64,000 nucleotides of DNA, from positions 4,774,001 to 4,838,000 of the forward strand of contig JBHGNT010000004.1 of NCBI GenBank assembly GCA_043228905.1, written 5' to 3'. This document shows, in pieces, positions 11,807-60,684 of the stretch. The translations under genes were made by a program, and so were the position numbers. This DNA comes from Azolla caroliniana (Eukaryota > Plantae > Polypodiophyta). Below the pieces are notes generated by a model. The model had not been told where the DNA came from. It saw nothing but the letters and a program-made list of their open reading frames with translations, and ran no database searches. Position 1 is the first letter of the stretch. The number at the start of each line of letters is the position of its first letter.

Positions 11807-14800
11807 TCACGATGAGTCATGACTAGGCCTTGAATGTGGTGGTGGGGTGTGAGTGTGAATGCTCTCTTTATTGAGCTCATAGCCTAATACATCATTTAAC
11901 TTCCTTCTTTTATTGTTACAATCATGCAAAGGCTCCTCTTGCAACTCTTTAGACTCTTCATGGTCATTGTCATCATCATCATCATCATCATCATTTATAA
12001 TCACATTAGCAATATCTTCGAGTTTTTTGGAGGTTCTATCTGTAGTTTCTTGTTGGGCTTCTTCATTAATATCTCCTGAAGTTGTGCTTTGGCTCTTTGA
12101 TAATTTCCAGCCTCTAGAGCAAATCCGTTTATATAAATCAACTGATTTTAGGGTTGTTGGAGGATGCTGCAAACAAACACAATTTTGCTTTTTTCTTCCA
12201 CTCAAACATTATGATCAATATATGTGCCAATTATATCATTATATTTGACAAAAATCTTGGATATACACACACAAAAGAAGAAGATGAAGGTGCTTTGCAT
12301 TATCTAATGGTTGAATATGGTTGCTCTGAATCTCCTTATGTATATTGTATTGCAACAAAATGGCATGTGTGTCCATGTATGTATGTACATACAGGTATTT
12401 TATGAACCTAAAGTTTGCATGTATTTGTATGTGTACATATGCGTATTAGATTTTTTATTTTTATAACCTGCATTGAAGGAAGTCCATGCACAAGATGATC
12501 CATTTCTTGTTGAAGCTTGAGAACTTCTGATCTTATTTGAGCTTCTGTTAGCTCTTCCATCCCTGCTCCTTGCCCAACAGCTATAGTATGCTCCAATCCA
12601 TTAATTGTGCTCTCTAAGCTCCTCACCTAATATAAATACATACATACATATCCAACCTAATATAAATATACGTACATATCCATATAGTTTTTTCTTCATT
12701 GTAGAATGTAGTATAATTTTGGTCCATGGTATAATAACACAAACAAGGGAAAAATGCTAAGGAAATATATGTACCAAAATACCCCTACCGTTGTTGGGTA
12801 TTTCGTACTAGGATACCTTGTTGTGATACAACTGTTACACAAGGGTATTCTATACACATTGTATCGTCAATATTTTTGAAAGTTAAGGGAATTATGGTAA
12901 ATATGCCCCAAAACAAATGCATAACCACATCTTGGTTACCTTTCGTCCTGGCCATCGTTTAAGTCCAAATTTCCGACAAGCTTTCTTTAGGGTTGTTTGA
13001 GAAACACCAAGTTTTTTGGCAGCATCCACAACACTGAGATGAAAGTAGGAGGATAACTCAGACATCTTCAATCGATGAGTTCCCCGTCCCTAGTATATAG
13101 AAGAATGCAATACAATTTCAAATAGGGGATAGTATATTATATGTCATCATTAAGATTATAAAATCAAAAGTTGTGTTAAGAAAACTATATACAGATATGA
13201 GATTAGGATGGTCTTTAAATGCATGCATTCTCACTTCGTACGACTGATCAAACAACTCAAATTGAAGCAAAAAAAAGGACAAGGAAACTATGTCTTCAGA
13301 CTAGAAATATCAAATATAATATTTTTGGGCCTCGACATACTTTGAAACATACTGAGCACATTGGCACATATTCATGGACATGTTTCTTTAAATGCATTTG
13401 TTGCTTATTGTAACAAATTACAATCTATATGACTCATGAGCCAACAAATATAACAATAATCAATTTAATAGAAATATAGCTATCATTATACAAAGTTCAA
13501 ACAAGTCTGATTATTGTCTATTCTAGCCCACAACACTTAAAACCTATCATATTATCTCTTTAGTGCTTTAAACATTTGGGTTGGACCTTCTAAAAACTAA
13601 AAATCACATGCATGAGGATGCACATACAATTTGGATATAGATTCATGGTGGGGACGAACAATTGGAAATTAATGTGCTCTACATAAAAATCATACACACA
13701 CACACACACACACAAATGGAGTTTGGAAATATAGGCACATGGATGACTAGTGGTGAAAACTAGTGGGCTATAACTCTCAACAAACACACACTACTGGCTA
13801 TAACTAGGTATAGGAATATAAAAGACAAAATGGGGTGACTAGTGCCTATTAACTAGATAACACACACATGATGTGTCTCAAACATATAGAATGAATAATA
13901 TGGGTGACTAGGTCATAGAAGCTAGTTGGCTATAACTTGGAACACACACACACACATTGTGTCTCTACATATAGAGACATCCATGGCACCATGCATTAAT
14001 ATTATATATCATGAGCTTACATGTGAATGTTGGCAAGAAGCTTACGGTCTTGCTTCTCCTGTTGACGAGAAACACCATCTCCGGCACTTGCGAATTAGTG
14101 TCGAGATTAGGATGAGCATCGATGGCGGATGATGAAGATTGGTCCTTTTCGGACCGATAACATTCAATGCCAGAGTGAGCATGCTCCATGTGATCATTAG
14201 AAGTCACATTTTCGACTCCACCAGAGTTAGGTCCATTATGATTCATCATATAGGTGTTGTCTTGATAAGCTCGTTCGTTATGGCCGAGGAAAAGATCGGG
14301 TCGATCCTTATAATCATCGGCCGAGGTATGCATGTCCTGCGATGAAACATGATGCGACGGATTCCTCAAGTTCGCATTGAGAGGTCGATGAGGGTTAATA
14401 TGCATAGTTGGAATGTTGGTATAGAATTTCTCAATTGTGTCATTCACCATGGCCGAGGTGATAAATGGAGTAGCAGAAGTGCTTTGGTTGCCTATACATG
14501 CATCACTAGGCATAAAAGCACCTAATTGGGAAGCCAAGATCTGAGCCAATATAGTAGCAATATTTGGGTTGTTAAATTTGGAGAGCATATTGCTAGGCAT
14601 GATATTGTTTGGTGCAATATTGTTGTGGGTTTGTTGTACATTATTGCAACTAATGTCATGATCATGGATGAAGTTGTGTGGTGGTTGAGCTGAATTAATA
14701 CTACCCAAATTGAAGAACACATTGTTGTTACTGTTGTTTAAGCCTTGATTCCTTTGCATTGGGCATGGCATTGAAGCATTATTGTTGACACACAACATTG

Positions 14801-16207
14801 GAGATACATTTTCTGTGGTAGGGTTAATAAGATTCTCTCGCGGTATCGAAGATGGTTTGGCATATGAATTGGGGCTAAATAATATCTCCCCATGATTCAA
14901 CTGGTTAGAATGTCCAAAGCATTGTGTAAGATTCGCGGGGCTAGCACCTCCAGTCGTATGATCCTCAATATCCGCATCTGAATCGACAGGCTTAGGGATC
15001 GTGATCATCGCGAGGTTTTTGGGTCGTTTGAAAGCACTACCGGCGGTAGTGATAAGATTTGAAGCTGATAGACCAAAATCTTTCGTCGGAGAAGGCGGCG
15101 GCTGATCGCAGCTAATAATCGATTCACGTGGAGGATGACTAGGTTCAGGTGGAAGGGAGATATGGTGCTCATAGGTGGTGGTAGTTAATATGGTTAATTC
15201 ACTAGGTGGAGGCTTGGTGGGGGTTGAACATACAAGAGAAGGTTTTACAGTTATACAACTACACTTATGGTCGGAGACATGTTGGAGCAAGTGTTCTCGG
15301 GACGAAGGGGCAGGGGTCGGGGTAGCGAGGCTAAAGCTACAATTCACAAGTTGTTGTTGTTGTTGGTTGTGTTGAGATTGTGGATTGTGAATGTGATCGG
15401 AGGCGGAAGATACTAGGGTTAAATTGCTAGGGGGTTTCCAAGTGACATTGTTGTATGGATTTGAACTAGGGGCAAGGTCTACTAGATTTGGGCTTAGTAT
15501 AACTGCCACAAGCTGCTTGTTCCCTTTGCATATCAACACATCTTCGAGGGTCGCGTCCACATCTAGCTCTTCGGGCTCGCTCCCATCCGCTCTCGCCAGC
15601 TGCAACCTCTCCACCCGATCCTTCTCCCCGATGAATCCCAATCTCCGTCCGTTCTTCTATTATGTTATCGACATTCGTACAAGAAACACATATTAAAACA
15701 ATGTCAGAAAAGAAAGGCTCTATAACCAATTGAATCTACTTTGCATCTATATATCTATATATATATATATATGTATGTATGTATGTATATATGTTATCGA
15801 CATATAATCGAAGGCAAATCTAATTTGAAAAAAAACACCAAGGTGTCGAGAATTTCGGAAGATAAATCGTCAATTTGCACTGAGGACAGTCGGAATTCCG
15901 AAAAACCTTTTTTTTTAAAAGAAAAGAAGAATCTAAAAATGAAGAGATATATGTATGAATCATTGTGGTGCATCTATTGAATCCCCAAAATTTGTGTGTT
16001 AAAAAGGAGGAATTTGATTGCAGATCTGAATCCAGAATTTTCATTTTGTAAAGACGGTCTCCTTTTTTAATGATTGAGCCAGACCTCGATGATTCGGGCG
16101 AATTCTTGAAGGGTTTCATGAAGATGGCGAGCAGAGCTCCAATGGTGACCTTTGACAAACACGGTGAACTTTGCCTTAACATGGTCTGTGTGGGCGTGCA
16201 GAGCCAT
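11807..16207 (-). CDS. RWP-RK domain transcription factor (non-NLP, RKD/MID-like), ~800 aa, 5 exons
   Basis: Exons 16207-16085, 15656-14046, 13089-12940, 12626-12468, 12166-11807, all phase 0. Exon 3 encodes LKMSELSSYFHLSVVDAAKKLGVSQTTLKKACRKFGLKRWPGRK and continues VRSL in exon 4. The first and last exons are less certain. Confidence 0.85.
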
Positions 16208-18514: not shown

Positions 18515-21500
18515 CTATTTCACATGCATGTTGCCTAATGTATAGTTTCCAATATTGAAGTTCCCTTCTGGTTGACTTACTACTGCAGCTTGTGCCTGAA
18601 GAAAAATACAAATAACTTGTGTTAGTGACCAGAAGAAAGAAGTATTTAAATGCCTATTCAAGAGCTCAAAGCAAGCCATCCATCCATTACATGCAAAACC
18701 ACAATGTGAAGTTTCAATTTATACATCATTAAAATATTGACTTTTTCGTCCATAACCACAAATTATTTGCTCATTGATTTATGAAAGCTCGCGCTTTGCA
18801 ATATGGTGGGGTTCAAGTCTCGTACAAAAGGTCGGGATGTTGAGTCCATTTAAGGAAAAACTTTTCATTATTCTAGATATCATTCACACCATGAATAGTT
18901 TTATGCTCCTTTGAGAGGCAATGTTAGCAAAAGAAAAAGAAAATGATGAGAGCATACCTGTTTCGTGTATGAAATTAGTGTATCATCCAACATTCCGGTG
19001 CATGCTTTTGTACTAAGAGGAGTGTCTTTAAGCCTGAACTTACTATCTCTTATGCACTGATCTAGTGATCTGTTGTTATAAAGCCCACTCTCCTGGAATC
19101 CCTGCATCAACTGCGGTGGTTGTCCTGATAAACATCCTGCCTTAAATGATTGTCCATAATCTTGATTGAAATGAGAGCTTGATTCCAACTCACTTTTCGG
19201 CCCTAAATTTGGATTGTTCTGAATAAGGCTATGCCAAACTTGCAAGCTATTTAGAGTTGCATTTGGATTAGAAACTAATACACCAGTATTATTACCAGGT
19301 TGTATAATAGAAGCATTTGTATTCCTACTTCCACCCACATCCAAAGTCTCATTGAGAATAGGGGTCTTTACAATTGCATCACTAGCAAGAGATGTAGACC
19401 CATAAGGAATATCAAGACTTCCGAAATTATCGACCGCAGGCCTTCTCATAGAATTAGGACTATTAGCAGATAAGATGAATTCATTATGTTCTGGTCGGAC
19501 ATCAAAAAATGCCCCAACGCCCCTGCCTTCCTGGAGCTTTGGCCTAATTTCGGTAGAAGTCATCGGTAGCCCAATACTTGCATTAGCTTGTTGCTGTAAA
19601 ATTTGGGCCACCAATGCATCATTACTATTGTTCTCAATAGGCAAGCAGCTATCAAGGGTACTAAAAATTGGGTCTAACCCTCCCATGTTTGGTAAAGATG
19701 TTAAACGATGCAACTCTACTGGACTGGAAGATAATGTACTGTTTCCAGATTGCCCAAATGACCCAGATTGCCTTATCCCCACCTGGTTGATGTGATACCC
19801 ACTTGAAATAGTATTTGATAGGGGTAATCCATAAGGTGACCTTGTGGCTATAGCACCAGTATTTGCTCCGTGAACTGCAGCTAGCTGCCGTAATGTATAC
19901 AAATCTAATCCAGGGGGGGTGCTAAGAACTGATCTATCTATAGAACCAGATGGCAAAGATGACTTCGATGATACAAAATCACCAAAACTAGATCCAGCAA
20001 TCCCAAAAGATGGATCTGGTGAACCTAGCATTGTTGAGCCCAGACCCCCAATTTGACGATGATGAGGCACTTCACTGATTCGTTTCAGATATAATCGATA
20101 TTTCTGAAAGGAAACAAATAAAACATCAAATCGGACAACATGATATCGCATGATAGTAACAGGGCAATACAAGACGTTGTGACATATGTAATAGTAGGTC
20201 AGTATCGGAGACGGACACATAAAAGTAAGTATTCATGCATGGAGTCTCAATACCAACCTGTAAATGGCTTGCAACATTTTCCCTTGTAAGCCCACGAACA
20301 TCCATAAGCTCAAGGACTCTCTTCGGGACAGCCTCTGTAAAAAATAAGCAAACTAGATGAGCATGCTTCTATAGAATTAATGAAGTCCAAAACAAACACA
20401 CATGGCATCGTTTATAAAGCATCAAAGATGTTGCGTTCATATTATCAAGTGTATTTGGAGACACCAAACTTACTATCAATGCCAAGTTGGTTCACTGCAG
20501 TTACAAACTTCTGATGCAACTCAACCGACCAGACGACACGTGGCTTCTTTGATGTCGATGGATCATCATTATCAAGTTCAGCATCATCATCGTCCTCTTT
20601 CCTCTTCTTCGAATGCCTTGATGAAGCAGCATCAGGTCCATCACTTGAATGGTACTCACCACCACCATCATTAAGCTGCTGATCTTCAACATTATCACTC
20701 ACTGCCCCTTCTCTCTTCTTCCTCCTCACAACATGCTGCCAGATGTTCTTCAATTCCTCAATCCGCACAGGTTTTAGAAGATAATCGCAAGCACCATGCT
20801 TGATTCCCTTCATAACAGCACTTGTCTCCCCGTTCGCTGACATCACTGGACAGAAGTCGATTTAAATCATAGATGCACAGAAGCAGTCTATTAGAAAATT
20901 CAGACCAATGCAAATTACATTAATAAAACATGGCATATGGGAGAGCCTGATCAATGGATCTAGTTTCTACTTAAAATTGAAAGAGAAAAGAGCTTCAATT
21001 CAATGCCGACTTTGTTAAGCCCCCACAAAATGGGAGAACCTGATCCACGTATTTTGCTTCAAACAACAACAATTGAAAGGGATACAAGGATTCAATTCAA
21101 TGTCAATTACCCAAATAACTATATCAAATGCTATAAATCTTTCTCCCAACAACATGATCATTTAAAGAAAAAAGATCCTCAATTTGATGCATATAACCAT
21201 TACTAATGATCCAATGTACACAACTTCAAACAAGACACTAATTTGACAAGAAAGGGCTTCAACAAATTCGATGCCAATTATATTAACGATCCTGCCAGAT
21301 GGGAGGGCGTGATTCATGTATCTGTTTGAAACAAGAAGTTTAATTTAAAGAGAAAAGAGCTGAAGAGCTTACTTATAACAGGAAGATCCATTTCCAGTCC
21401 AACAAGCTCAAGCAACTTGAAACCATCCATATCAGGCATATGCACATCACTGATGACCACATCAAATCCATCTTTGTTTTCTCTCAGAACCCTGAGAGCC

Positions 21501-45000: not shown

Positions 45001-47258
45001 ACACATGATCCCTTCCACCAGATCTTTGCCATGCTGGCTGACTCGTGACCCACTTCAATGCCTCCTGTAGAATAGAGTATTATTAATTCATAGATTATGG
45101 TGCATTGGATAAAAGATTCTCCGATATGTTAGATTATCCACAAACTCAGAATACTGAGCCCAGCAAACATATATGACCAAGCAAAACTTTCAAACATTTA
45201 AAACCGAAAACCAAACGTCATTGTTGTACAAACCCTCAGAAACATTGGACCTAACAAACATATGAATTTCCTTTGAATAATATTCGAGCATCTAAACCGA
45301 AATTATTGCCTCATATTTTACAAGAATGTGAGAATAATCGGTCAAACAGCTATTCAATTTCCATCAAAGGATTGAAACAACAAAACACTGAAAAAAACTT
45401 GGATCTCCACAAATCATCCCATCTTTTAATGGATTCATGATAATTATCCAAAACCTCACAATAATAGGCTAAGAAAATGTATGAGTTTCCTTCCAAAAAT
45501 ACATCTAAACAAAAATGGGGAATTTTGGTACATCCTGAGATCATTATTCAGCAGCACCTCAGATAAATGGGCCACGAAAATGCATAACTTTCCTTCCATA
45601 ACAATACATAAAACATCTAAAGCCAAAAGTAGAAGAAACCTTAGCTATCTGTGTATCAAAATTATCCTTCATTATTCTCCAAAGCCTCACAATCTGAATA
45701 CTATTCATTGTACCAGCAAGCAAGTAAATTGAATCTCCATCAAACGATAATGATTTGAAACAGCTAAAACCAGAACAAAAGTATATTGTCCATTCTAATA
45801 GCCAACAAATGCATTGAAATTTCTTCTAATGATAATGATTCAAACATCTAAAACCAGAAAGGAATAAACCTTGGACCTCGGTGTATTAGTCATTCTAACA
45901 GAAAGTAGACGCATTGAAGTTCTTTCTAGTGATGATGGTTAAAGATTGCATCTAATCTCTTTCTAATGATCGTGATTCAAACATGTAAACAAAAGAGGCT
46001 GGATACGTGCATATCATCCATTCTAACAGCAAACAAATGCAATGATTTTCTTCCAATAATATAGATTCAAGCATCCAAAACTGATAATAATAATAATAAA
46101 AACCTTGAAACAGACGCCCACACCCTGTATAGAAGACTCCGCTGTGGCTTTTCAAGCAGAAAGAAGCTGATGGTTGTGAAAAAAGGAATGTAGAATATAT
46201 CCGCCTCTTCTTCGTCAAATACTTGGACCACAGTCTTTACAAGCCTTTCAGACTCTGGAGCAAGTAGATCAGCCCATAGCCAGTAATCAACTGAATGCTG
46301 TGAGCGATGAAACATAGAGAAGATCAATACAAGCAATTTTAATGCACATAAGAAGAAGAATTAGAAACCATTTGAAGAATTTTTAGCAGTAGAAGAAGAA
46401 AATAGACCCCAAAGAATGTAAGGATGAAGAAGAAGAATTTGGATCCTGTGTATACTTAGCCACCCTTTAAGAATCACACAGCGCACAAGAAAACAATGAT
46501 AAAGTCTGTCCACTTATCAGTTCAATCAGCCGTAAGAAGAATACTGTACATTTACCAGCTCAACAAAAAGAAGAAGTGGAAGAAGAAGAAGAAGAAAACG
46601 AGGATGTTCATTTTTTATCTGTTCAATAAGAAATATGAAACAGAAGCGGAAGCATATGGGAGAAGAAAGACGAACGAACATTTACCTGCTCAATAAGGCG
46701 ATGAATGGGGCTTCCATTTGATGTTGCGTTCACTGTGTCTTTCAAAGTCTCATGAAAAAGCCGCAAAAGATCAAACGTGAATTTGCTCGGCATATCATAA
46801 ACATAAACTCTAAGCCGATTCTCCTTCTTCTCTTTGTAAAGATCGTTCAATTCTCTTCTTCCAACTGCATTATCAAGCTCTTTCGCAGAAACAGAAACAG
46901 CAAACAAATCTACTTCTTCCTCATTATCAGACGCGATCTTCCCGTCAATAACCACAGATCTCGATGATGCTGTTTTCTTAAACGAAGATAAATCTTTCCT
47001 TTGTTTGTTCAAGAAAGCCTCGAGAGAGGTCACAAACGATCTCTCTATCGAAGGAGGGGGGGAAGCCCTAGACCGCGCAAAAGAGAAGGAAGAGGAGAGG
47101 AAGAGGTTAGAGTTGATGGAGGCGAGGAGAGAGGAAGCGGCGAGCAAGACGAAGAAAAGAGAGATGAGAAGAACGAGAAAGATAGGAATGAGGGAGAGGG
47201 GCAAGGATTTACTGGTGTGATTACCACAACTGTTTCTGGAGCTGCTTCTGGGCGCCAT
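42066..47258 (-). CDS. GT47/exostosin family glycosyltransferase (ARAD1-like), ~9 exons
   Basis: Type II membrane anchor ([19 protein letters not shown]); motifs [76 protein letters not shown], terminal CTCDC. Exons start 47258-46686, 46297-46124, 45064-... Confidence 0.93.
43787..44168. mobile_element. Probable solo LTR (382 bp) in a GT47 intron
   Basis: Begins TG and ends CA; flanked by 5-bp direct repeats CCACA (43782-43786, 44169-44173); more GC-rich than the host intron; internal TATA-like run. Confidence 0.5.
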
Positions 47259-49680
47259 AGCCAGACAGCAGCAGAAGCAGCAGTAACAGGAACAGGAACA
47301 GTAGCAGTAACAGTTGCAGCTCAAGCTCAAGCTCAAGCTTCACTCTTCTTCTTCTTCTTCTTCTTCTTCTTCTTCTTTCTTCTTCGTCTCTGTGTGTCTG
47401 AGAGTGTCAGTGTCGGTGTGAAATGTGAATTATTTTGGGTCTCGTTTCACACTGTGCCTCAGAATCTAGCAATCGGGCGGTTTCACACTGGGCCTGTGTT
47501 TGTCCGGACAGGACATCGCACTGTCGCAGGAGCTTCGACTCCCTCCTAGCACACGCACCCACCCAGCCACCCAACCAACCCACCATGTGATGTGTAGATT
47601 TTGATTTATGCATCTGTATGTATGTATTGTAATGGATATGTATAACACTCCGAAACACTTGTTTGTGTGTTTGGTTCGGTTTCTAAAGCTCATCCCCTTC
47701 TACGAAAAAATGTAAATGCCTTTTGTGACCCTTCCACCATGTCCTTAGTTCTCGTGGAAAAACATGGTTATGGCTATCCAATAACTCGTGGTCTCTTTCG
47801 CATCGGCAAATGGGTATTATTCATGTGCTGATGCTTACTAATGCGTGGTTCCCACTTGATCAATCAAAGAGAAATATAACTTCATCGTTTCATTTGCAAC
47901 ATATGGTGGGGAATTAGAAACGATGATCAAAGCATGTATACGCAAAACTAGTGCATCTCTTTTTTAGAGATTTCTGGGAACAAGGTTTGGAGACATCTTT
48001 GGGTAGATTCCAAGCATTCCTATCAAGCAACGATTATTTCCTTCAATCAACAAGATTTGAGCGCTTTGGACCATCTAGAATTGCATAAAGTTAGCTTCTT
48101 CAAGCAATCCGATAGACAATCTCTGTTGAATTGTCGACTCCTCGAGGATATCCCACTTCAAACTTTTATTTTTTACTTCGAGTGCATGTAAGGACTTTCA
48201 TGTCAAAATGACGCCTTTTAGAATCCTCTTTATTTTTCATGGGTATTGACCTCATGTTTAGGTTTTACCACTAGTATTATAAGCATTACTAAAAAAAGGA
48301 TGCTAGTTAGATAAGACCCCTAACTTTTTTGACTCAATAGATAAACCATCTAAGAGGGCAAGCCAAGGAGCAAACCTCTTGACAAGTTTGTTTCATCCCA
48401 TAGATCCAATGGGTATCACTCCTACTTTGATGTGTCTCCATGTTGTGATAAGCAAGGTCAATATATTCATTTACTAGAAATTCCATATGCTTTACTAACA
48501 ATAACATCTCTTTTCATAAAAAGGACTTTCAACGGTGATCAAACATCCTTTATATTTGCCAATGCTCATTAAAAGTGTCAATTCAATTACTATGGGCTTT
48601 GCCATGATTTTATCATTTGCCAAAGACATCAAAGACGTGGGAGATTATTAACAACTAATTTAGTCGATAACTATTACCAAGTCTTGGTGATGTGTTCATA
48701 ACCTATTGCTTCAATAAGCTAGGAAAACTATTTAGTATAGTTGGGGAAGTAATTAAAGCATTGCAATGTAACCAATTTGCTAACCATACAACAAACCCTA
48801 ATTAACACATGAAACTTCACAATCCATACTCTTTGCTATCATACTTGCAAGGTTACTTTAATAATCATGAATTTTACATCTTTTGGCATTAACAATGGCA
48901 AACATAACATTATTCCACAGTATGGCAAGCACATAATACTTGGCATTGTTTTGCTGATCTTTGAGTTGTTATGGTTTTCCATTTTATAAATGTTTGCATT
49001 AATTTTATTCTTTGTATATAATTATTGGTCAAAGCCTTACAAATAAACATGAGACTGTAGTTTGGTTACTAGAAGTATTTCAAGGATCACAAATGTTAAA
49101 GCCCAACAGCTTCACATTTTTTTTAAATCCAAAGAACTATAACTGTACATGTAGCAATCATATACATAAAAACAAATGTTTGACATGTATGATGATGGCT
49201 TGGAGAAGAAATCAATAAAAAGATCATACAAGCTTGTAATAATTCACTATCTATTTGACAGATCCAATTTAAAAGATCAGGGTATTTCTTCAAAATTTTG
49301 GGTGATTTTTCAACAATTCAAGGGCAAATTACAAACTCGCTGGTTGGAAATGTGATCATCTGTCATTCTTGTTATTCATATGAAGCAGTAATTCATGTAA
49401 ATAAATATTGTAAGCCATAAATGTAATTATTCACATACGATGCATGAAGGGGCCTAATTTATGCAGCAGTGCAGATCCCACAACAAACAACTTCCGTTGC
49501 TAGAATAAAGCATTAGCAGACATGTAAGCACTGCGTCTGTCAAGATAGAACACACCATACTGTTTGCAACAAAAAAACCCATTGGGTAGCTTACTCAATA
49601 AGAAATAGGTTACAAGTTTTAAATTTAAAATACTCAAACACCTACACATACAGATAATTGGCAAATATATATATATATAT

Positions 49681-57217: not shown

Positions 57218-60200
57218 TTACTTATAATGAGGGACAATAGAGTGATCACAAATCATTTTCATTTTATAGTGGTGGCCACTAAAGTTAGTTAGTTCACCTA
57301 GCACATATTTTCTATTACATCTACTGTTTTGCACCCTCGACATTTGAAAGGTAATAGTTTCCATCTCTTCATATATGTCTTTACTTCGAGAATGTTTTGC
57401 ATTCTCTAACCTTGCATTAAACCACAGATTATTTCCTTGCTTCACCAAAGCATCATAATTTAGACTCAAAGGATCAATATTTCCTGCCTCTTTTTGAATA
57501 CCCAGATTTGCACTAACATTCGCCATAAGAGCATAGGCTGAATCACAACCCTTTTTTAATTTTATTGCTTGATCAAAAACCAAATTTGCAAGTTTCAAAT
57601 TTCCCCATTTTCTACAAGCACTCAATAGTGCAAGCCAAAGAACATCATAATCACAAGGAGGTATCATCTGAGCAAGTAACATTGCCTTGTCAAAATGGCC
57701 TATAAATCCAAGAAAAGACGCAATGCAATTACGGTGCTCAACACTTGGACTGATACCATATTTACTTGTCATACTCTCGAAAAGAGAATTTCCCTCATCC
57801 CATAAACCCGTGCGAGAACACGCAGTAAGTATACAAAGGAAAGTGACATTATTCGGATCAATTCCTTCACTTTGCATCCTTTCAAAACATTTCAGTGCTT
57901 CATAACCTTTCCCTTGGTGAGCATAACCAGCAATTAATGAAGACCAAGATACTATGTTTCTAAAAGGAAGTTCTTCAAGCACATATTGTGCTAAGGCAAG
58001 CATACCGCATTTTGCATACATGTCTACTAAAGCACCACCAAGTACTATATCTTTATCTAATAAACCCCTTCTCAATATGTCACCATGAATTTGTTTGCCA
58101 GTGTTTATTGCCCCTGTGCTACCACACGCTTTTAAGATGCAAATTAGTGTGACTTCATCTGAAGAAAAGCCCTTGTTTTGCATCTTCTTGAAACAAAACA
58201 ATGCTTCATGACAGAGCTCTTGTTGTACAAACCCTGTAATTAGTGCATTCCAAGACACTACATCTTGAACATGCAGATCTTCTAGCACCTTTTGTGCCTT
58301 TTCCGGGAACCCACATTTGGCATACATATCCACCAAAGCATTGCCAAGCACAGTGTCATTCTCTAATAACCCCTTACTCAAAATCTCATCATGAATTTGT
58401 TTGCCTGTGTCTAGGGCTCCTGCACTTCCACAAGCTTTCAAGATGCAAGTATAAGTGATGGTGCTTGCATAGTGTCCCTGTCTTTGCATCTGTTCAAAAC
58501 AGGTCAATGCATCAAGGCATTGCCCTTGCTCCACATATCCTGCAATTAGAGCATTCCAAGTGGCTTCATTACAAGCAACGAGTTCTCCAAGTACTTCTTG
58601 TGCTTTCCCAAGCATACCACATTTGGCATACATATCTACCAAAGCAGTCCCTAGTGCAATATCCTTATCCAACAACCCCTCATCCACAACCTCATCATGA
58701 ATTAGTTTCCCTTCGTTTATAGCTCGTGTGTAGCCACAAGCTTTTAGAATGCAAATGAAGGTAACCACATCAGGTGAGAGACCACAGCTTCGCATTTGTT
58801 TAAAACATAAAAGTGCTTCATGACATTGCCCCTTGTGTGCATATCCTGAGATTAGTGCAGACCAAGAGACCACATCTTGAACAGGAAGCTCTTCAAACAC
58901 ATCTTTTGCTTTTCCGAGCATACCACATTTAGCATACATGCCTACCAAAGCACTCCCAAGTAGACTATCCTTCCCTAACACGCCCTTACTCAAGATTTCA
59001 TGATGAATCAATTTCCCATTGTCTATAGCTCCAATGTTCCCACAAGCTTTAATTATACAAAGATATGTTGACAAATTTGGAGAGAGGCCATCTCTTTGCA
59101 TTTGTTGAAGACAGTTCAGTGCCTCATGGCATTGCCCCTGTTGAACATACCCTGCCATTAGTGCATTCCAAGAGAGTGTGTTTCTAATAGGAATCTCCGC
59201 GAGCACCTTCTGTGCTTTTCCGAACGCACCACATTTAGCATACATATCAACCAAAGCATTACCAAGGACAATATCGTTCTTCAACAAGCCCATGGTAGTA
59301 ATCTCCTCATGAATTTGCTTTCCTTTATCTATAGCCCCTATGCTACCACATGCCTTCAGAATGCACGTGAATGTAATAGAATTTGGGCTAATTTCTTCAC
59401 TTAGCATTTGATCGAAACAAAGTAATGCCTCATGGCAGCGTCCACATTCAGCATAACCTGCAATCAACGTTGACCAAGAGACTACATCTCGGACTGGAAG
59501 TTCTATAAAAACCTTGTGGGCTTTCTCAAGCACTCCACATCGAGTATACATATCCACTAAAACATTACCTAGTATAATGTTCCTTTCCAATAAGCCTTTA
59601 CTCACAATCTCTTCATGAATTTTCTCCCCCTTGTGTATAGAGCCAGTGTGGCCACATGCCTTCAAAACACAAGAAAAAGCGACAACATCTGGCGAGATCC
59701 CTTCATTTTGCATTTGTTCAAAACAGATCAATGCTGTGTGATCTTGACCATGTTGAGAATAGCCTGAGATTAGAGCAGACCAAGAGACTACATCACGAAA
59801 AGGAAGCTCATCGAGCACTTCTTGAGCTTTCAGAATCATACCACATCTAGCATACATACTAATCAAAGCACTAGCTATAAAAGGGTTATTTCCCAGTATC
59901 TTCTTTTTCAGAAGTTGATTATGTAATCTGGTGCCTTCACATATATCCTTCTTTCTTGCACATGCCTTGAGTACGGCCATCACAGTGAAATCTTGCTTAT
60001 GACTTCCATTCCTATTAATCTCCTTACATTGCTCTGTAGCTAAAAATGCTCTTCTTCTTCTGAGATCTTCATGAAGCCAATGGGGATTATATAACCCATC
60101 AATCCACAAAGATTCACGAGTCATGGTGTTTCTAAAATCAGGAGATTTGGATGTACTCTGGATGAAAAGAGAAAGTAAAAAAGAAAATTTATCAACACGC

Positions 60201-60415
60201 AGACATATACACACGTTCTGAAGAAAAAACGAAAAATAAAGAGCTACTGCATGCAAATCTCTCTCTTTCTCATCATTATCATCATCGCTTACCTTGGTGT
60301 TACGATTGTCATACCACTGTGTAGGATTTGTGAAGAAGTCTTTCCATAAGAGATGCGTCTTTGTAGAGGAGCCACTAGATTTCTTCAATCCCCGCATAAG
60401 CTCTTGGGGCAGCAT
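57218..60415 (-). CDS. PLS-class pentatricopeptide repeat protein (PDF motif + PLS array + E1/E2 + degenerate DYW remnant), ~1020 aa spliced
   Basis: Exons 60415-60293 and 60157-57218, with a 135-nt in-frame intron (AAG|GTAAGC..TCCAG). Contains L-S, six ~102-aa P-L-S triplets, P2-L2-S2, and E motifs (LWLALLSACRKWGN; AYALMANV). Confidence 0.93.
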   Translation of the reverse strand: MLPQELMRGLKKSSGSSTKTHLLWKDFFTNPTQWYDNRNTKVSDDDNDEKERDLHAVALYFSFFLQNVCICLRVDKFSFLLSLFIQSTSKSPDFRNTMTRESLWIDGLYNPHWLHEDLRRRRAFLATEQCKEINRNGSHKQDFTVMAVLKACARKKDICEGTRLHNQLLKKKILGNNPFIASALISMYARCGMILKAQEVLDELPFRDVVSWSALISGYSQHGQDHTALICFEQMQNEGISPDVVAFSCVLKACGHTGSIHKGEKIHEEIVSKGLLERNIILGNVLVDMYTRCGVLEKAHKVFIELPVRDVVSWSTLIAGYAECGRCHEALLCFDQMLSEEISPNSITFTCILKACGSIGAIDKGKQIHEEITTMGLLKNDIVLGNALVDMYAKCGAFGKAQKVLAEIPIRNTLSWNALMAGYVQQGQCHEALNCLQQMQRDGLSPNLSTYLCIIKACGNIGAIDNGKLIHHEILSKGVLGKDSLLGSALVGMYAKCGMLGKAKDVFEELPVQDVVSWSALISGYAHKGQCHEALLCFKQMRSCGLSPDVVTFICILKACGYTRAINEGKLIHDEVVDEGLLDKDIALGTALVDMYAKCGMLGKAQEVLGELVACNEATWNALIAGYVEQGQCLDALTCFEQMQRQGHYASTITYTCILKACGSAGALDTGKQIHDEILSKGLLENDTVLGNALVDMYAKCGFPEKAQKVLEDLHVQDVVSWNALITGFVQQELCHEALFCFKKMQNKGFSSDEVTLICILKACGSTGAINTGKQIHGDILRRGLLDKDIVLGGALVDMYAKCGMLALAQYVLEELPFRNIVSWSSLIAGYAHQGKGYEALKCFERMQSEGIDPNNVTFLCILTACSRTGLWDEGNSLFESMTSKYGISPSVEHRNCIASFLGFIGHFDKAMLLAQMIPPCDYDVLWLALLSACRKWGNLKLANLVFDQAIKLKKGCDSAYALMANVSANLGIQKEAGNIDPLSLNYDALVKQGNNLWFNARLENAKHSRSKDIYEEMETITFQMSRVQNSRCNRKYVLGELTNFSGHHYKMKMICDHSIVPHYK

Positions 60416-60684
60416 TAATTTCTTCTTCTTCTTCTTCTTCTGCTTCTTGTTTCCATGTTAGAGCTGTAGCTTATAGCAGTAAAGAAGACATGCTTGGTAG
60501 TTTCCACATCCTATTTCCCTCCTCAAGTCTTGGGTTCAAATCTCACTTGACCTCTCTCTACCCACAAAAACGTATCACTCACTCCATAATAACGTCTCTC
60601 TATCAAATCTATACATATGTATATGATATACATATATGTATCTATAATCAATTAATCACCTTCTCTGTCTTTGCCATCTCTTGA

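What the first reader, a model, noticed from the sequence alone, without database searches (positions are those of the whole stretch)
15480..16207. RWP-RK factor with an apparent N-terminal ubiquitin-like/PB1 fold built from a hidden first exon
Seen in sequence: a 41-codon exon (16207-16085, absent from the ORF track, with an in-frame stop just upstream of the ATG) splices in phase to 15656. The product is VKAKFTVFVKGHHWSSARHLHETLQEFARIIE|KNGRRLGFIGEKDRVERLQLARADGSEPEELDVDATLEDVLICKGNKQLVAVIL. Inference: the beta-beta-alpha-beta-beta-beta pattern and LDVDATLEDVLI (compare ubiquitin LEDGRTLSDYNI) suggest a beta-grasp fold. Established: NLPs carry PB1 C-terminal to RWP-RK and RKDs lack it. An N-terminal UBL, then a ~480-aa disordered linker, then RWP-RK fits neither class and may define a distinct subfamily. 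Non-NLP RWP-RK proteins (RKD, MID) are known gamete-differentiation regulators.
Basis: partly seen in the sequence, partly recalled or inferred. Interest (0 to 1): 0.7.

Follow-up and report, generated by a model that had tools for sequence, protein, structure and literature searches.

The report
Ubiquitin-fold domain on fern MID factor
This fern gene is the counterpart of a known liverwort sperm-stage transcription factor (MpMID), and a small overlooked first exon completes a strongly conserved, uncatalogued domain, predicted to fold like ubiquitin, that likely lets the factor dock onto copies of itself or onto partner proteins.

Summary
The hidden exon is real, and the fold guess holds. Exon 16207-16085 scores 42.4 bits on a profile built from homologs only (40 shuffles: at most 8.4). 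Of the fetched proteins that span this junction, 20 join the two halves at the same residue, and 33 of 33 unspliced ones break there. The gene (5 exons, 800 aa, minus strand) is the fern ortholog of Marchantia MpMID/RWP2: 41 of 45 RWP-RK residues are identical, against 22-25 for paralogs in the same genome. So the subfamily is already named (MID/RKD(C)), not new. The new part is the ~85-aa N-terminal domain. It is 67-79% identical across ferns, a lycophyte, mosses and liverworts, against 12-22% for the linker, and has no Pfam match. AlphaFold2 on the Adiantum ortholog gives pLDDT 92.7 and beta-grasp matches (Afadin RA1 Z 10.1, Par3-NTD Z 9.3). It is not a canonical PB1 (no OPCA core) and not a conjugatable modifier. 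Relatives occur as small stand-alone proteins in Chara and Coleochaete. The deposited MpRWP2 model lacks half of the domain. A protein-interaction role is inferred, not shown; no reads covered the gene. Published MpMID knockouts are fertile.

The parts
16085..16207 (-). Exon 1 (41 codons). From 16177 on it encodes strands beta1 and beta2 and most of helix alpha1 of the beta-grasp domain.
   Evidence: E 2e-11; 42.4 bits against at most 8.4 in shuffles
15657..16084 (-). Intron 1, 428 nt, GT-AG, phase 0. It falls inside predicted helix alpha1; the position is shared by moss and other homologs.
15495..15656 (-). Second half of the beta-grasp domain (end of alpha1, beta3, acidic loop, alpha2, beta5), aa 42-95
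   Evidence: 80.0 bits
14046..15656 (-). Exon 2 (537 codons): domain half, then a Ser/Asn/Pro-rich, poorly conserved linker, then the conserved stretch before the RWP-RK domain
14517..14564 (-). Conserved linker motif (aa 406-421), likely an amphipathic helix; found in 17 of 17 orthologs tested
14049..14144 (-). Two short conserved motifs just before the RWP-RK domain, each in 15 of 17 orthologs
12940..13089 (-). Exon 3: RWP-RK DNA-binding domain (PF02042, E 1.3e-20), 41 of 45 residues identical to MpMID
12468..12626 (-). Exon 4: conserved stretch after the RWP-RK domain (80-92% mean identity in 20-aa windows over aa 621-680)
11807..12166 (-). Exon 5 (inferred): short conserved start, then a divergent acidic and basic tail and the stop; the whole model is 800 aa with no internal stop
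   Evidence: compare P0004 and P0048

Best explanation
[quoted passage not shown] Shown here: the exon structure by sequence and homology, RWP-RK identity with MpMID, conservation of the domain, and absence of a Pfam match and of a di-glycine end. Predicted: the fold (modelled on the Adiantum ortholog, 79% identical over the domain). Inferred: the conserved basic residues of strands 1-2 (K4, K6 and R20 in 12 of 12 land-plant rows, R12 in 11 of 12) would meet the conserved acidic loop (D59, E64, D67, D69 in 12 of 12) of a second copy, as in PB1 domains and Par3-NTD. That would give the RWP-RK domain, about 490 residues away on a flexible linker, cooperative DNA binding or partner choice during male germ-cell differentiation. 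Odds: docking module of some kind about 0.8; self-association in particular about 0.45.
For: Orthology: the cluster of hit P0041 holds Mp1g11830, 'protein MpMID' and 'RWP2'; RWP-RK 39-44 of 45 to 10 named orthologs against 22-25 of 45 to 5 paralogs of the own genome. Conservation: domain 67-79% against linker 12-22% over 10 orthologs. Fold: AlphaFold2 with 29 rows, pLDDT 92.7, pTM 0.82, five models 91.2-92.7. Foldseek rows are ubiquitin-like, RA, FERM-F1 and UBX chains, best E 4e-3, probability about 1. VIA over 48,161 chains: Afadin RA1 Z 10.1 (rmsd 2.5, 78 aligned), Par3-NTD Z 9.3 (rmsd 2.2, 77 aligned, 21% identity), 21 chains at Z 8 or more. ESM Atlas models of P0004 and of the Chara protein P0072 (31% identical to it) also match beta-grasp clusters. 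Charge pattern. Precedent: NLP PB1 and the volvocine VSR1/MID N-terminal domains mediate RWP-RK dimerisation (PMC10629530, passages; PMC7051960, passages).
Against: No experiment and no read from this organism. A shared fold shows no function, and the top rows (RA, UFM1, Par3-NTD, FERM, USP7 UBL) are tied within about 1 Z unit. Foldseek has no match at E 0.001 or better. The first, 8-row model was poor (pLDDT 59.8) and matched nothing clearly. Atlas feature scores are under 0.9, which is lead level only. The basic beta1 lysine and E64 are not kept in the algal stand-alone relatives. Mpmid-1ko males are fertile (PMC6290024), so the biological role is open.
Confidence: 0.6

Rival explanations
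1. The domain is a monomeric beta-grasp that binds a different protein (another transcription factor, a chromatin complex, a small GTPase or a CDC48/proteasome adaptor), as RA, RAWUL, UBX and UBL domains do.
For: The best structural row is an RA domain, and many RA, FERM-F1, RAWUL and UBL rows tie with Par3-NTD. The OPCA core is absent. Conservation of 67-79% across the whole domain fits a fixed partner. Volvocine MID binds a different RWP-RK, VSR1, through its N-terminus (PMC10629530).
Against: No partner was identified. Both a basic and an acidic cluster are invariant in land plants, which is what front-to-back self-binding needs.
Confidence: 0.28
2. The domain is a diverged PB1 taken from an NLP-like ancestor and moved to the N-terminus.
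For: Beta-grasp fold, a lysine in beta1 in 12 of 12 land-plant rows, and an acidic loop. PB1 domains are poorly conserved in sequence (PMC7051960). A PB1-bearing cluster appears among the Atlas feature hits (0.83; only 20% of its members carry PB1).
Against: No PF00564 match at E up to 10 in 20 or 26 members. OPCA core in 1 of 17 rows. The closest sequence relatives are stand-alone charophyte proteins, and no NLP is among the 36 profile hits. The profile finds no other locus in the own genome, which holds NLP-like RWP-RK loci.
Confidence: 0.06
3. It is a ubiquitin-like fusion that is clipped off or conjugated, or that serves only as a degradation tag.
For: The L-D-x-D-x-T-L-x-D stretch before helix 2 resembles the ubiquitin pattern (recalled), and ubiquitin and UFM1 chains match.
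Against: No di-glycine follows the last strand in the window or in the 17 full-domain rows. No Pfam ubiquitin match; only UBL_ZFAND1 at E 0.011 in 2 of 20 members, under its threshold.
Confidence: 0.03
4. In this fern exon 1 is not, or not mainly, spliced to exon 2, and the protein made lacks a folded domain.
For: Weak donor (GTCTGG). M. polymorpha has annotated isoforms that start inside intron 1 and lack the first half (P0041, P0053, P0057).
Against: Exon 1 is intact and 58-84% identical to orthologs. Twenty homolog records are joined at this residue. One unnamed gene appears both unspliced (P0069 plus P0002, longest contig 8110 each) and joined (P0019, contig 2814), the latter likely a transcript.
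Confidence: 0.03

Closest known systems
MpMID / MpRWP2 (Mp1g11830, Mapoly0014s0044), streptophyte MID/RKD(C) subfamily
   Same: RWP-RK 41 of 45 identical, same downstream conserved stretch, same linker motifs, and the same N-terminal domain at 76% identity in the 753-aa isoform P0054.
   Different: Nothing structural: this is the fern ortholog. The legend of the published schematic names only the RWP-RK domain and motif 12 (PMC6290024, Fig. 6a; the figure itself was not seen). The sequence deposited as RWP2 (ANQ44024.1 = P0041) lacks the exon-1 half of the domain.
NIN-like proteins (RWP-RK plus C-terminal PB1)
   Same: An RWP-RK domain paired with a beta-grasp domain; PB1 mediates NLP self-association (PMC7051960, passages).
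   Different: Here the domain is N-terminal, about 490 aa from the RWP-RK domain, has no Pfam PB1 match and no OPCA core. No Pfam domain was found in exon 2 or exon 5.
Par3 N-terminal domain (PB1-like, oligomerising; PDB 4i6p, 2ns5) and Ras-association domains (Afadin RA1, 6amb)
   Same: Predicted fold: Z 9.3 and 10.1, rmsd 2.2 and 2.5 A over 77-78 residues; Par3-NTD has the highest sequence identity among the top rows, 21-22%.
   Different: No sequence-level match, a different lineage and protein context; binding not tested.
Volvocine MID and VSR1
   Same: RWP-RK factors that pair through N-terminal domains in gamete differentiation (PMC10629530, passages).
   Different: Their dimerisation domains are reported as not detectably conserved elsewhere. 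No chlorophyte protein was named among my hits (names looked up for only part of them). I had no volvocine sequence, so neither orthology nor a shared fold was tested.
Ubiquitin-like domains on other transcription factors (Pfam Ubiquitin_GT-1 PF26214, GRHL1_C PF25416) and TDP-43_N
   Same: They are the nearest named Atlas clusters by language-model features (0.85-0.87). Oligomerisation roles for these domains are recalled, not checked.
   Different: Scores are under 0.9, shared features 117-131 of 256, and none of these families matched in the local Pfam scans (the local copy may predate PF26214).

Membership tests
Streptophyte MID/RKD(C) RWP-RK subfamily (MpMID) | RWP-RK domain closest to MpMID rather than to RKD(A) or NLP paralogs | tested here: met
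   41/45 to MpMID, 39-44/45 to 10 orthologs, 22-25/45 to 5 own-genome paralogs. Five of the 10 other loci (L008-L012) were left out as partial or not parsed.
Streptophyte MID/RKD(C) RWP-RK subfamily (MpMID) | Conserved region outside the RWP-RK domain | tested here: met
   aa 621-680 show 80-92% mean identity over 9 orthologs. That this is 'motif 12' is recalled; the figure was not seen.
Streptophyte MID/RKD(C) RWP-RK subfamily (MpMID) | Clade membership in a tree with volvocine MID, RKD(A/B) and NLP references | tested here: inconclusive
   A 48-column tree of 17 rows sets the 5 paralogs apart at 90/92; no starred branch, bootstrap not settled, no volvocine or named NLP/RKD reference.
Streptophyte MID/RKD(C) RWP-RK subfamily (MpMID) | Expression in male gametogenesis | not testable with these tools
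   No RNA holder listed; known for MpMID only (PMC6290024, PMC6174852).
Beta-grasp (ubiquitin-like) fold | beta-beta-alpha-beta-beta-alpha-beta topology in a confident model | tested here: met
   pLDDT 92.7; E4-11, E14-21, H26-40, E48-55, short E64-65, H72-79, E83-89 (Adiantum ortholog P0004, not the window protein itself).
Beta-grasp (ubiquitin-like) fold | Structural match to solved beta-grasp domains over most of the domain | tested here: met
   Z 10.1 and 9.3 with 77-78 of 93 residues aligned; 21 of 48,161 chains at Z 8 or more, and the listed rows are dominated by RA, UBL, FERM-F1 and UBX chains.
PB1 domain | Pfam PF00564 match | tested here: not met
   0 of 20 and 0 of 26 alignment members at E up to 10.
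PB1 domain | Conserved lysine in beta1 | tested here: met
   K at model positions 4 and 6 in 12 of 12 land-plant rows and in the window; not kept in the algal rows. Equivalence to the PB1 lysine was not shown by superposition.
PB1 domain | OPCA core D-x-D/E-x-D/E (PMC7051960) | tested here: not met
   1 of 17 full-domain rows; absent from the window sequence. A different acidic cluster is conserved.
PB1 domain | Nearest structural neighbours are PB1 domains | tested here: inconclusive
   Only the PB1-like Par3-NTD is listed, tied with RA and UFM1 rows.
PB1 domain | Front-to-back self- or hetero-association | not tested
   No complex prediction was run.
Conjugatable ubiquitin-like modifier | Di-glycine after the last strand | tested here: not met
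   None in the window or in 17 full-domain rows.
NLP subfamily | PB1 C-terminal to the RWP-RK domain | tested here: not met
   No PB1 in exons 4 and 5 or in full-length orthologs P0003-P0006.

The most novel reading that the evidence does not exclude
Land-plant 'MID' is an ancient streptophyte RWP-RK class defined by a self-associating beta-grasp module of its own, shared with (perhaps recruited from) a small stand-alone charophyte protein family. RWP-RK factors would then have gained a ubiquitin-fold oligomerisation domain twice, PB1 at the C-terminus of NLPs and this one at the N-terminus of MID, and the module would do for land-plant MID what the N-terminal dimerisation domains do for volvocine MID and VSR1.
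Probability: 0.3. Interest if true: 0.65.

Novelty: new variant of a known kind. Interest (0 to 1): 0.46.

Why it matters
Land-plant MID is a puzzle: it is kept in bryophytes, a lycophyte and ferns, expressed in sperm-stage tissue, absent from Arabidopsis, and its liverwort knockout is fertile (PMC6290024). A domain conserved at 67-79% across these lineages gives the first folded module to test besides the DNA-binding domain. It offers a bait for partner screens, charge-reversal mutants, and a second marker for asking whether land-plant MID is really related to algal MID. It also flags reference models (deposited MpRWP2, an older Physcomitrium model) that lack part or all of the domain. The advance is a new domain family on a known factor, not a new system.

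Tried and rejected
No RNA holder was listed. Two same-label contig sets laid at 80% likeness gave 0 records each; this is no evidence either way. The first AlphaFold2 run with 8 rows was low-confidence (pLDDT 59.8) and its fold searches were uninformative (Foldseek best E 0.57, VIA best Z 4.8); it was superseded by the 29-row model. Sequence searches of the PDB gave nothing meaningful. Pfam gave only sub-threshold hits such as IF3_C and UBL_ZFAND1. No canonical PB1 chain appears among the 50 rows listed, which does not exclude the family. Five of the 36 representative hits (P0077, P0080, P0083, P0085, P0087) were rejected as repeat proteins scoring through summed repeats; P0077 is the only named seed-plant hit. 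The 16182 ORF was rejected. The Atlas gave no usable hit for P0063. In one search exon 5 was off by one base, so its 'postRWP' and 'Ctail' columns were not used; fixed. The scan's earlier findings held nothing by words or by sequence. Literature: 'RWP-RK + ubiquitin-like + Marchantia + RKD' gave 0 papers; 'RWP-RK + ubiquitin-like domain' gave 1 wheat QTL preprint, seen as a listing only; searches listed no title or abstract on an N-terminal domain of land-plant MID. PubMed id 27345166 (Rovekamp 2016) and a DOI recalled for the Sakuraba 2022 review are not held; Chardin 2014 and Koi 2016 were not looked up. These papers may describe an N-terminal motif.

Full report
Observation. On the minus strand an ATG at 16207, preceded in frame by two TGA stops, opens a 123-nt exon that ends at 16085 before a GT. 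A 428-nt AT-rich intron ends in AG at 15657, and the long frame starts at 15656 in phase 0. The donor is weak (GTCTGG) and the acceptor has a tandem alternative three bases on. A profile from 27 homolog rows, with the 2 window rows left out, scores exon 1 at 42.4 bits and the exon-2 half at 80.0. The next best frame in the window scores 4.4, and 40 shuffles of a 10-kb flank reach at most 8.4.

Gene model. Five exons (16207-16085, 15656-14046, 13089-12940, 12626-12468, 12166-11807), all introns GT-AG and phase 0, give 800 aa without an internal stop. Exon 3 is the RWP-RK domain (PF02042, E 1.3e-20). The genome (523 Mb) holds 11 RWP-RK matches, but the N-terminal profile matches only these two exons (lower bounds). 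The nearest named homologs are from Adiantum and Ceratopteris, so I call the organism a fern by inference.

Is the splice real? No read from this organism covered the gene, so the evidence is comparative. Of 95 fetched proteins, 53 match the junction patterns: 20 join the halves at the same residue, 20 of 20 exon-1-only ORFs run into a valine codon (GT donor), and 13 of 13 exon-2-only ORFs follow a glutamine codon (CAG acceptor). Several of these records are near-duplicates, so they are not 53 independent events. One unnamed gene is present both in pieces (P0069, P0002) and joined but still reading into intron 2 (P0019), which is likely a partly spliced transcript (inference). The rival 16182 ORF hits none of the 95 proteins.

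Identity. Searches with the domain returned full-length proteins from 12 named species: Adiantum capillus-veneris, A. nelumboides, Ceratopteris richardii, Diphasiastrum complanatum, Sphagnum troendelagicum, S. compactum, Physcomitrium patens, Marchantia polymorpha, M. paleacea, Riccia sorocarpa, R. fluitans and Calypogeia fissa. The M. polymorpha cluster is Mp1g11830, named MpMID and RWP2. The window's RWP-RK domain shares 41 of 45 residues with MpMID and 22-25 of 45 with five paralogs of its own genome; five further loci were left out as partial or unparsed. The gene is therefore the fern member of the MID/RKD(C) subfamily. MpMID is antheridium-enriched (PMC6174852, passages) and co-expressed with MpDUO1. 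Its knockout males are fertile, and no ortholog is found in Arabidopsis or Chara braunii (PMC6290024, section 9 read whole; supplement passages, which do not say which part the 995-bp deletion removes).

The domain. Residues 11-95 are 67-79% identical to 10 orthologs, the linker 12-22%, and the RWP-RK region 90-98% in the 8 that contain it. Pfam has no match above threshold. A profile search of 1.84 billion representatives gave 36 hits at E 0.001 or better, of which 5 are repeat-protein noise. It added distant relatives: stand-alone proteins of 125-157 aa in Chara braunii (three, one of them) and Coleochaete scutata, 32-37% identical to the window domain, and an unnamed 261-aa protein with the domain (43%) and a degenerate RWP-RK. 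UniRef names two of the Chara proteins 'Ubiquitin-like domain-containing' and 'DWNN domain-containing', so automated annotation has already touched the stand-alone relatives. I looked up names for 10 of the 28 new hits; most others are unnamed, so absence from seed plants, hornworts and chlorophytes is not established.

Fold. The spliced window protein was not folded; the Adiantum ortholog (79% identical over the domain) stood in. With 8 rows AlphaFold2 gave pLDDT 59.8 and no clear match. With 29 rows including the algal relatives it gave pLDDT 92.7 and pTM 0.82, with two strands, a long helix, a strand, a short strand, a short helix and a final strand. Foldseek found no match at E 0.001 or better, but its listed rows are ubiquitin-like, UBX, RA and FERM chains with probability near 1. 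VIA-align over 48,161 chains ranks Afadin RA1 (Z 10.1, rmsd 2.5, 78 aligned) and Par3-NTD (Z 9.3, rmsd 2.2, 77 aligned) first, followed by other RA, FERM-F1 and UBL domains; UFM1 joins at Z 9.5. Atlas models of P0004 (TM 0.61-0.76 over the domain) and of the Chara protein P0072 point the same way. Intron 1 cuts the long helix, so a model without exon 1 loses two strands and most of that helix.

Which kind of beta-grasp? Not a modifier: no di-glycine follows the last strand. Not a canonical PB1 by the criteria in PMC7051960 (passages): lysines in strand 1 are invariant in 12 of 12 land-plant rows, but the OPCA core occurs in 1 of 17 rows and PF00564 does not match. A different acidic cluster (model D59, E64, D67, D69) is invariant in land plants. 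The top structural rows are tied, so the fold names no family.

Mechanism. Shown: gene structure by homology, orthology, conservation. Predicted: fold. Inferred: a non-covalent docking module on a flexible linker; the linker is rich in Ser, Asn and Pro but holds one motif kept in 17 of 17 orthologs. I favour front-to-back self-association, because both a basic and an acidic cluster are invariant, Par3-NTD is among the best matches, and other RWP-RK factors pair through accessory domains (PMC10629530, passages). Binding to a different partner is nearly as likely. Against any central role stands the fertile Marchantia knockout.

Why it may have been missed. The sequence deposited as RWP2 (ANQ44024.1 = P0041, 778 aa) appears to start inside intron 1 and lacks the exon-1 half, while the 753-aa isoform has it. 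An older Physcomitrium model (PNR39260.1) starts near the end of the domain. That ANQ44024.1 is the product of KU987912, used in the published schematic, is inferred from the name.

Novelty. The subfamily is known (also PMC11655435, passages). I found no description of this domain in ten searches of the held library, but the main RWP-RK reviews and the 2016 MpRKD papers were not seen, and public predicted structures of MpMID would probably already show the domain. PMC5601483, PMC8128824 and PMC5426797 (passages) added nothing on it. Verdict: a real, previously uncatalogued beta-grasp domain family marking a known transcription-factor subfamily; a new variant of a known kind; interest 0.46.

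Noticed in passing
P0064, P0072, P0090 (Chara braunii), P0068 (Coleochaete scutata): Stand-alone 125-157 aa proteins made of the same domain, a proline-rich linker and a Cys/Trp-rich tail, possibly a lipid-anchoring signal (inference). Chara is reported to lack MID yet has three of these.
   Followed up: partly
P0063 (unnamed Logan record, 261 aa): The domain and a degenerate RWP-RK (Pfam E 0.0023, 17 of 45 identical to the window) in one uninterrupted ORF with a short linker; may be a diverged, algal or processed copy.
   Followed up: partly
P0041/P0053/P0057 versus P0054/P0055/P0056 (M. polymorpha); P0050 (P. patens): Annotated MpMID isoforms differ in whether they hold the whole domain; the deposited RWP2 sequence lacks the exon-1 half. 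This could be mis-annotation or a regulated domain-less isoform.
   Followed up: partly
window 14564-14517 (-): A 16-residue motif in the otherwise divergent linker is kept in 17 of 17 orthologs; a second linker motif found in 15 of 17 orthologs does not match in the window protein.
   Followed up: partly
P0003/P0004, P0005/P0006, P0037/P0061: Both Adiantum species and Calypogeia fissa have two records of the gene, whereas this genome shows one locus.
   Followed up: no
window 18901-20861 (-): The neighbouring gene upstream looks like a type-B response regulator: a receiver-domain piece (PF00072, E 8e-4) followed by a GARP-like motif (recalled).
   Followed up: partly
window 57218-60457 (-): A 1079-codon ORF encoding a pentatricopeptide-repeat protein.
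   Followed up: partly
window 46623-47339 (-): A 238-codon frame that resembles the start of an exostosin-type glycosyltransferase (recalled); no Pfam match at E 0.001.
   Followed up: no
L002-L006, L008-L012 (G000): Ten other RWP-RK loci in the genome; five look RKD-like (two of them about 20 kb apart on C8) and three NLP-like by recalled motifs.
   Followed up: partly
window 16760-16640 and 16570-16380 (-): Two pairs of roughly 60-130 nt direct duplications upstream of the ATG, seen by eye; not analysed.
   Followed up: no
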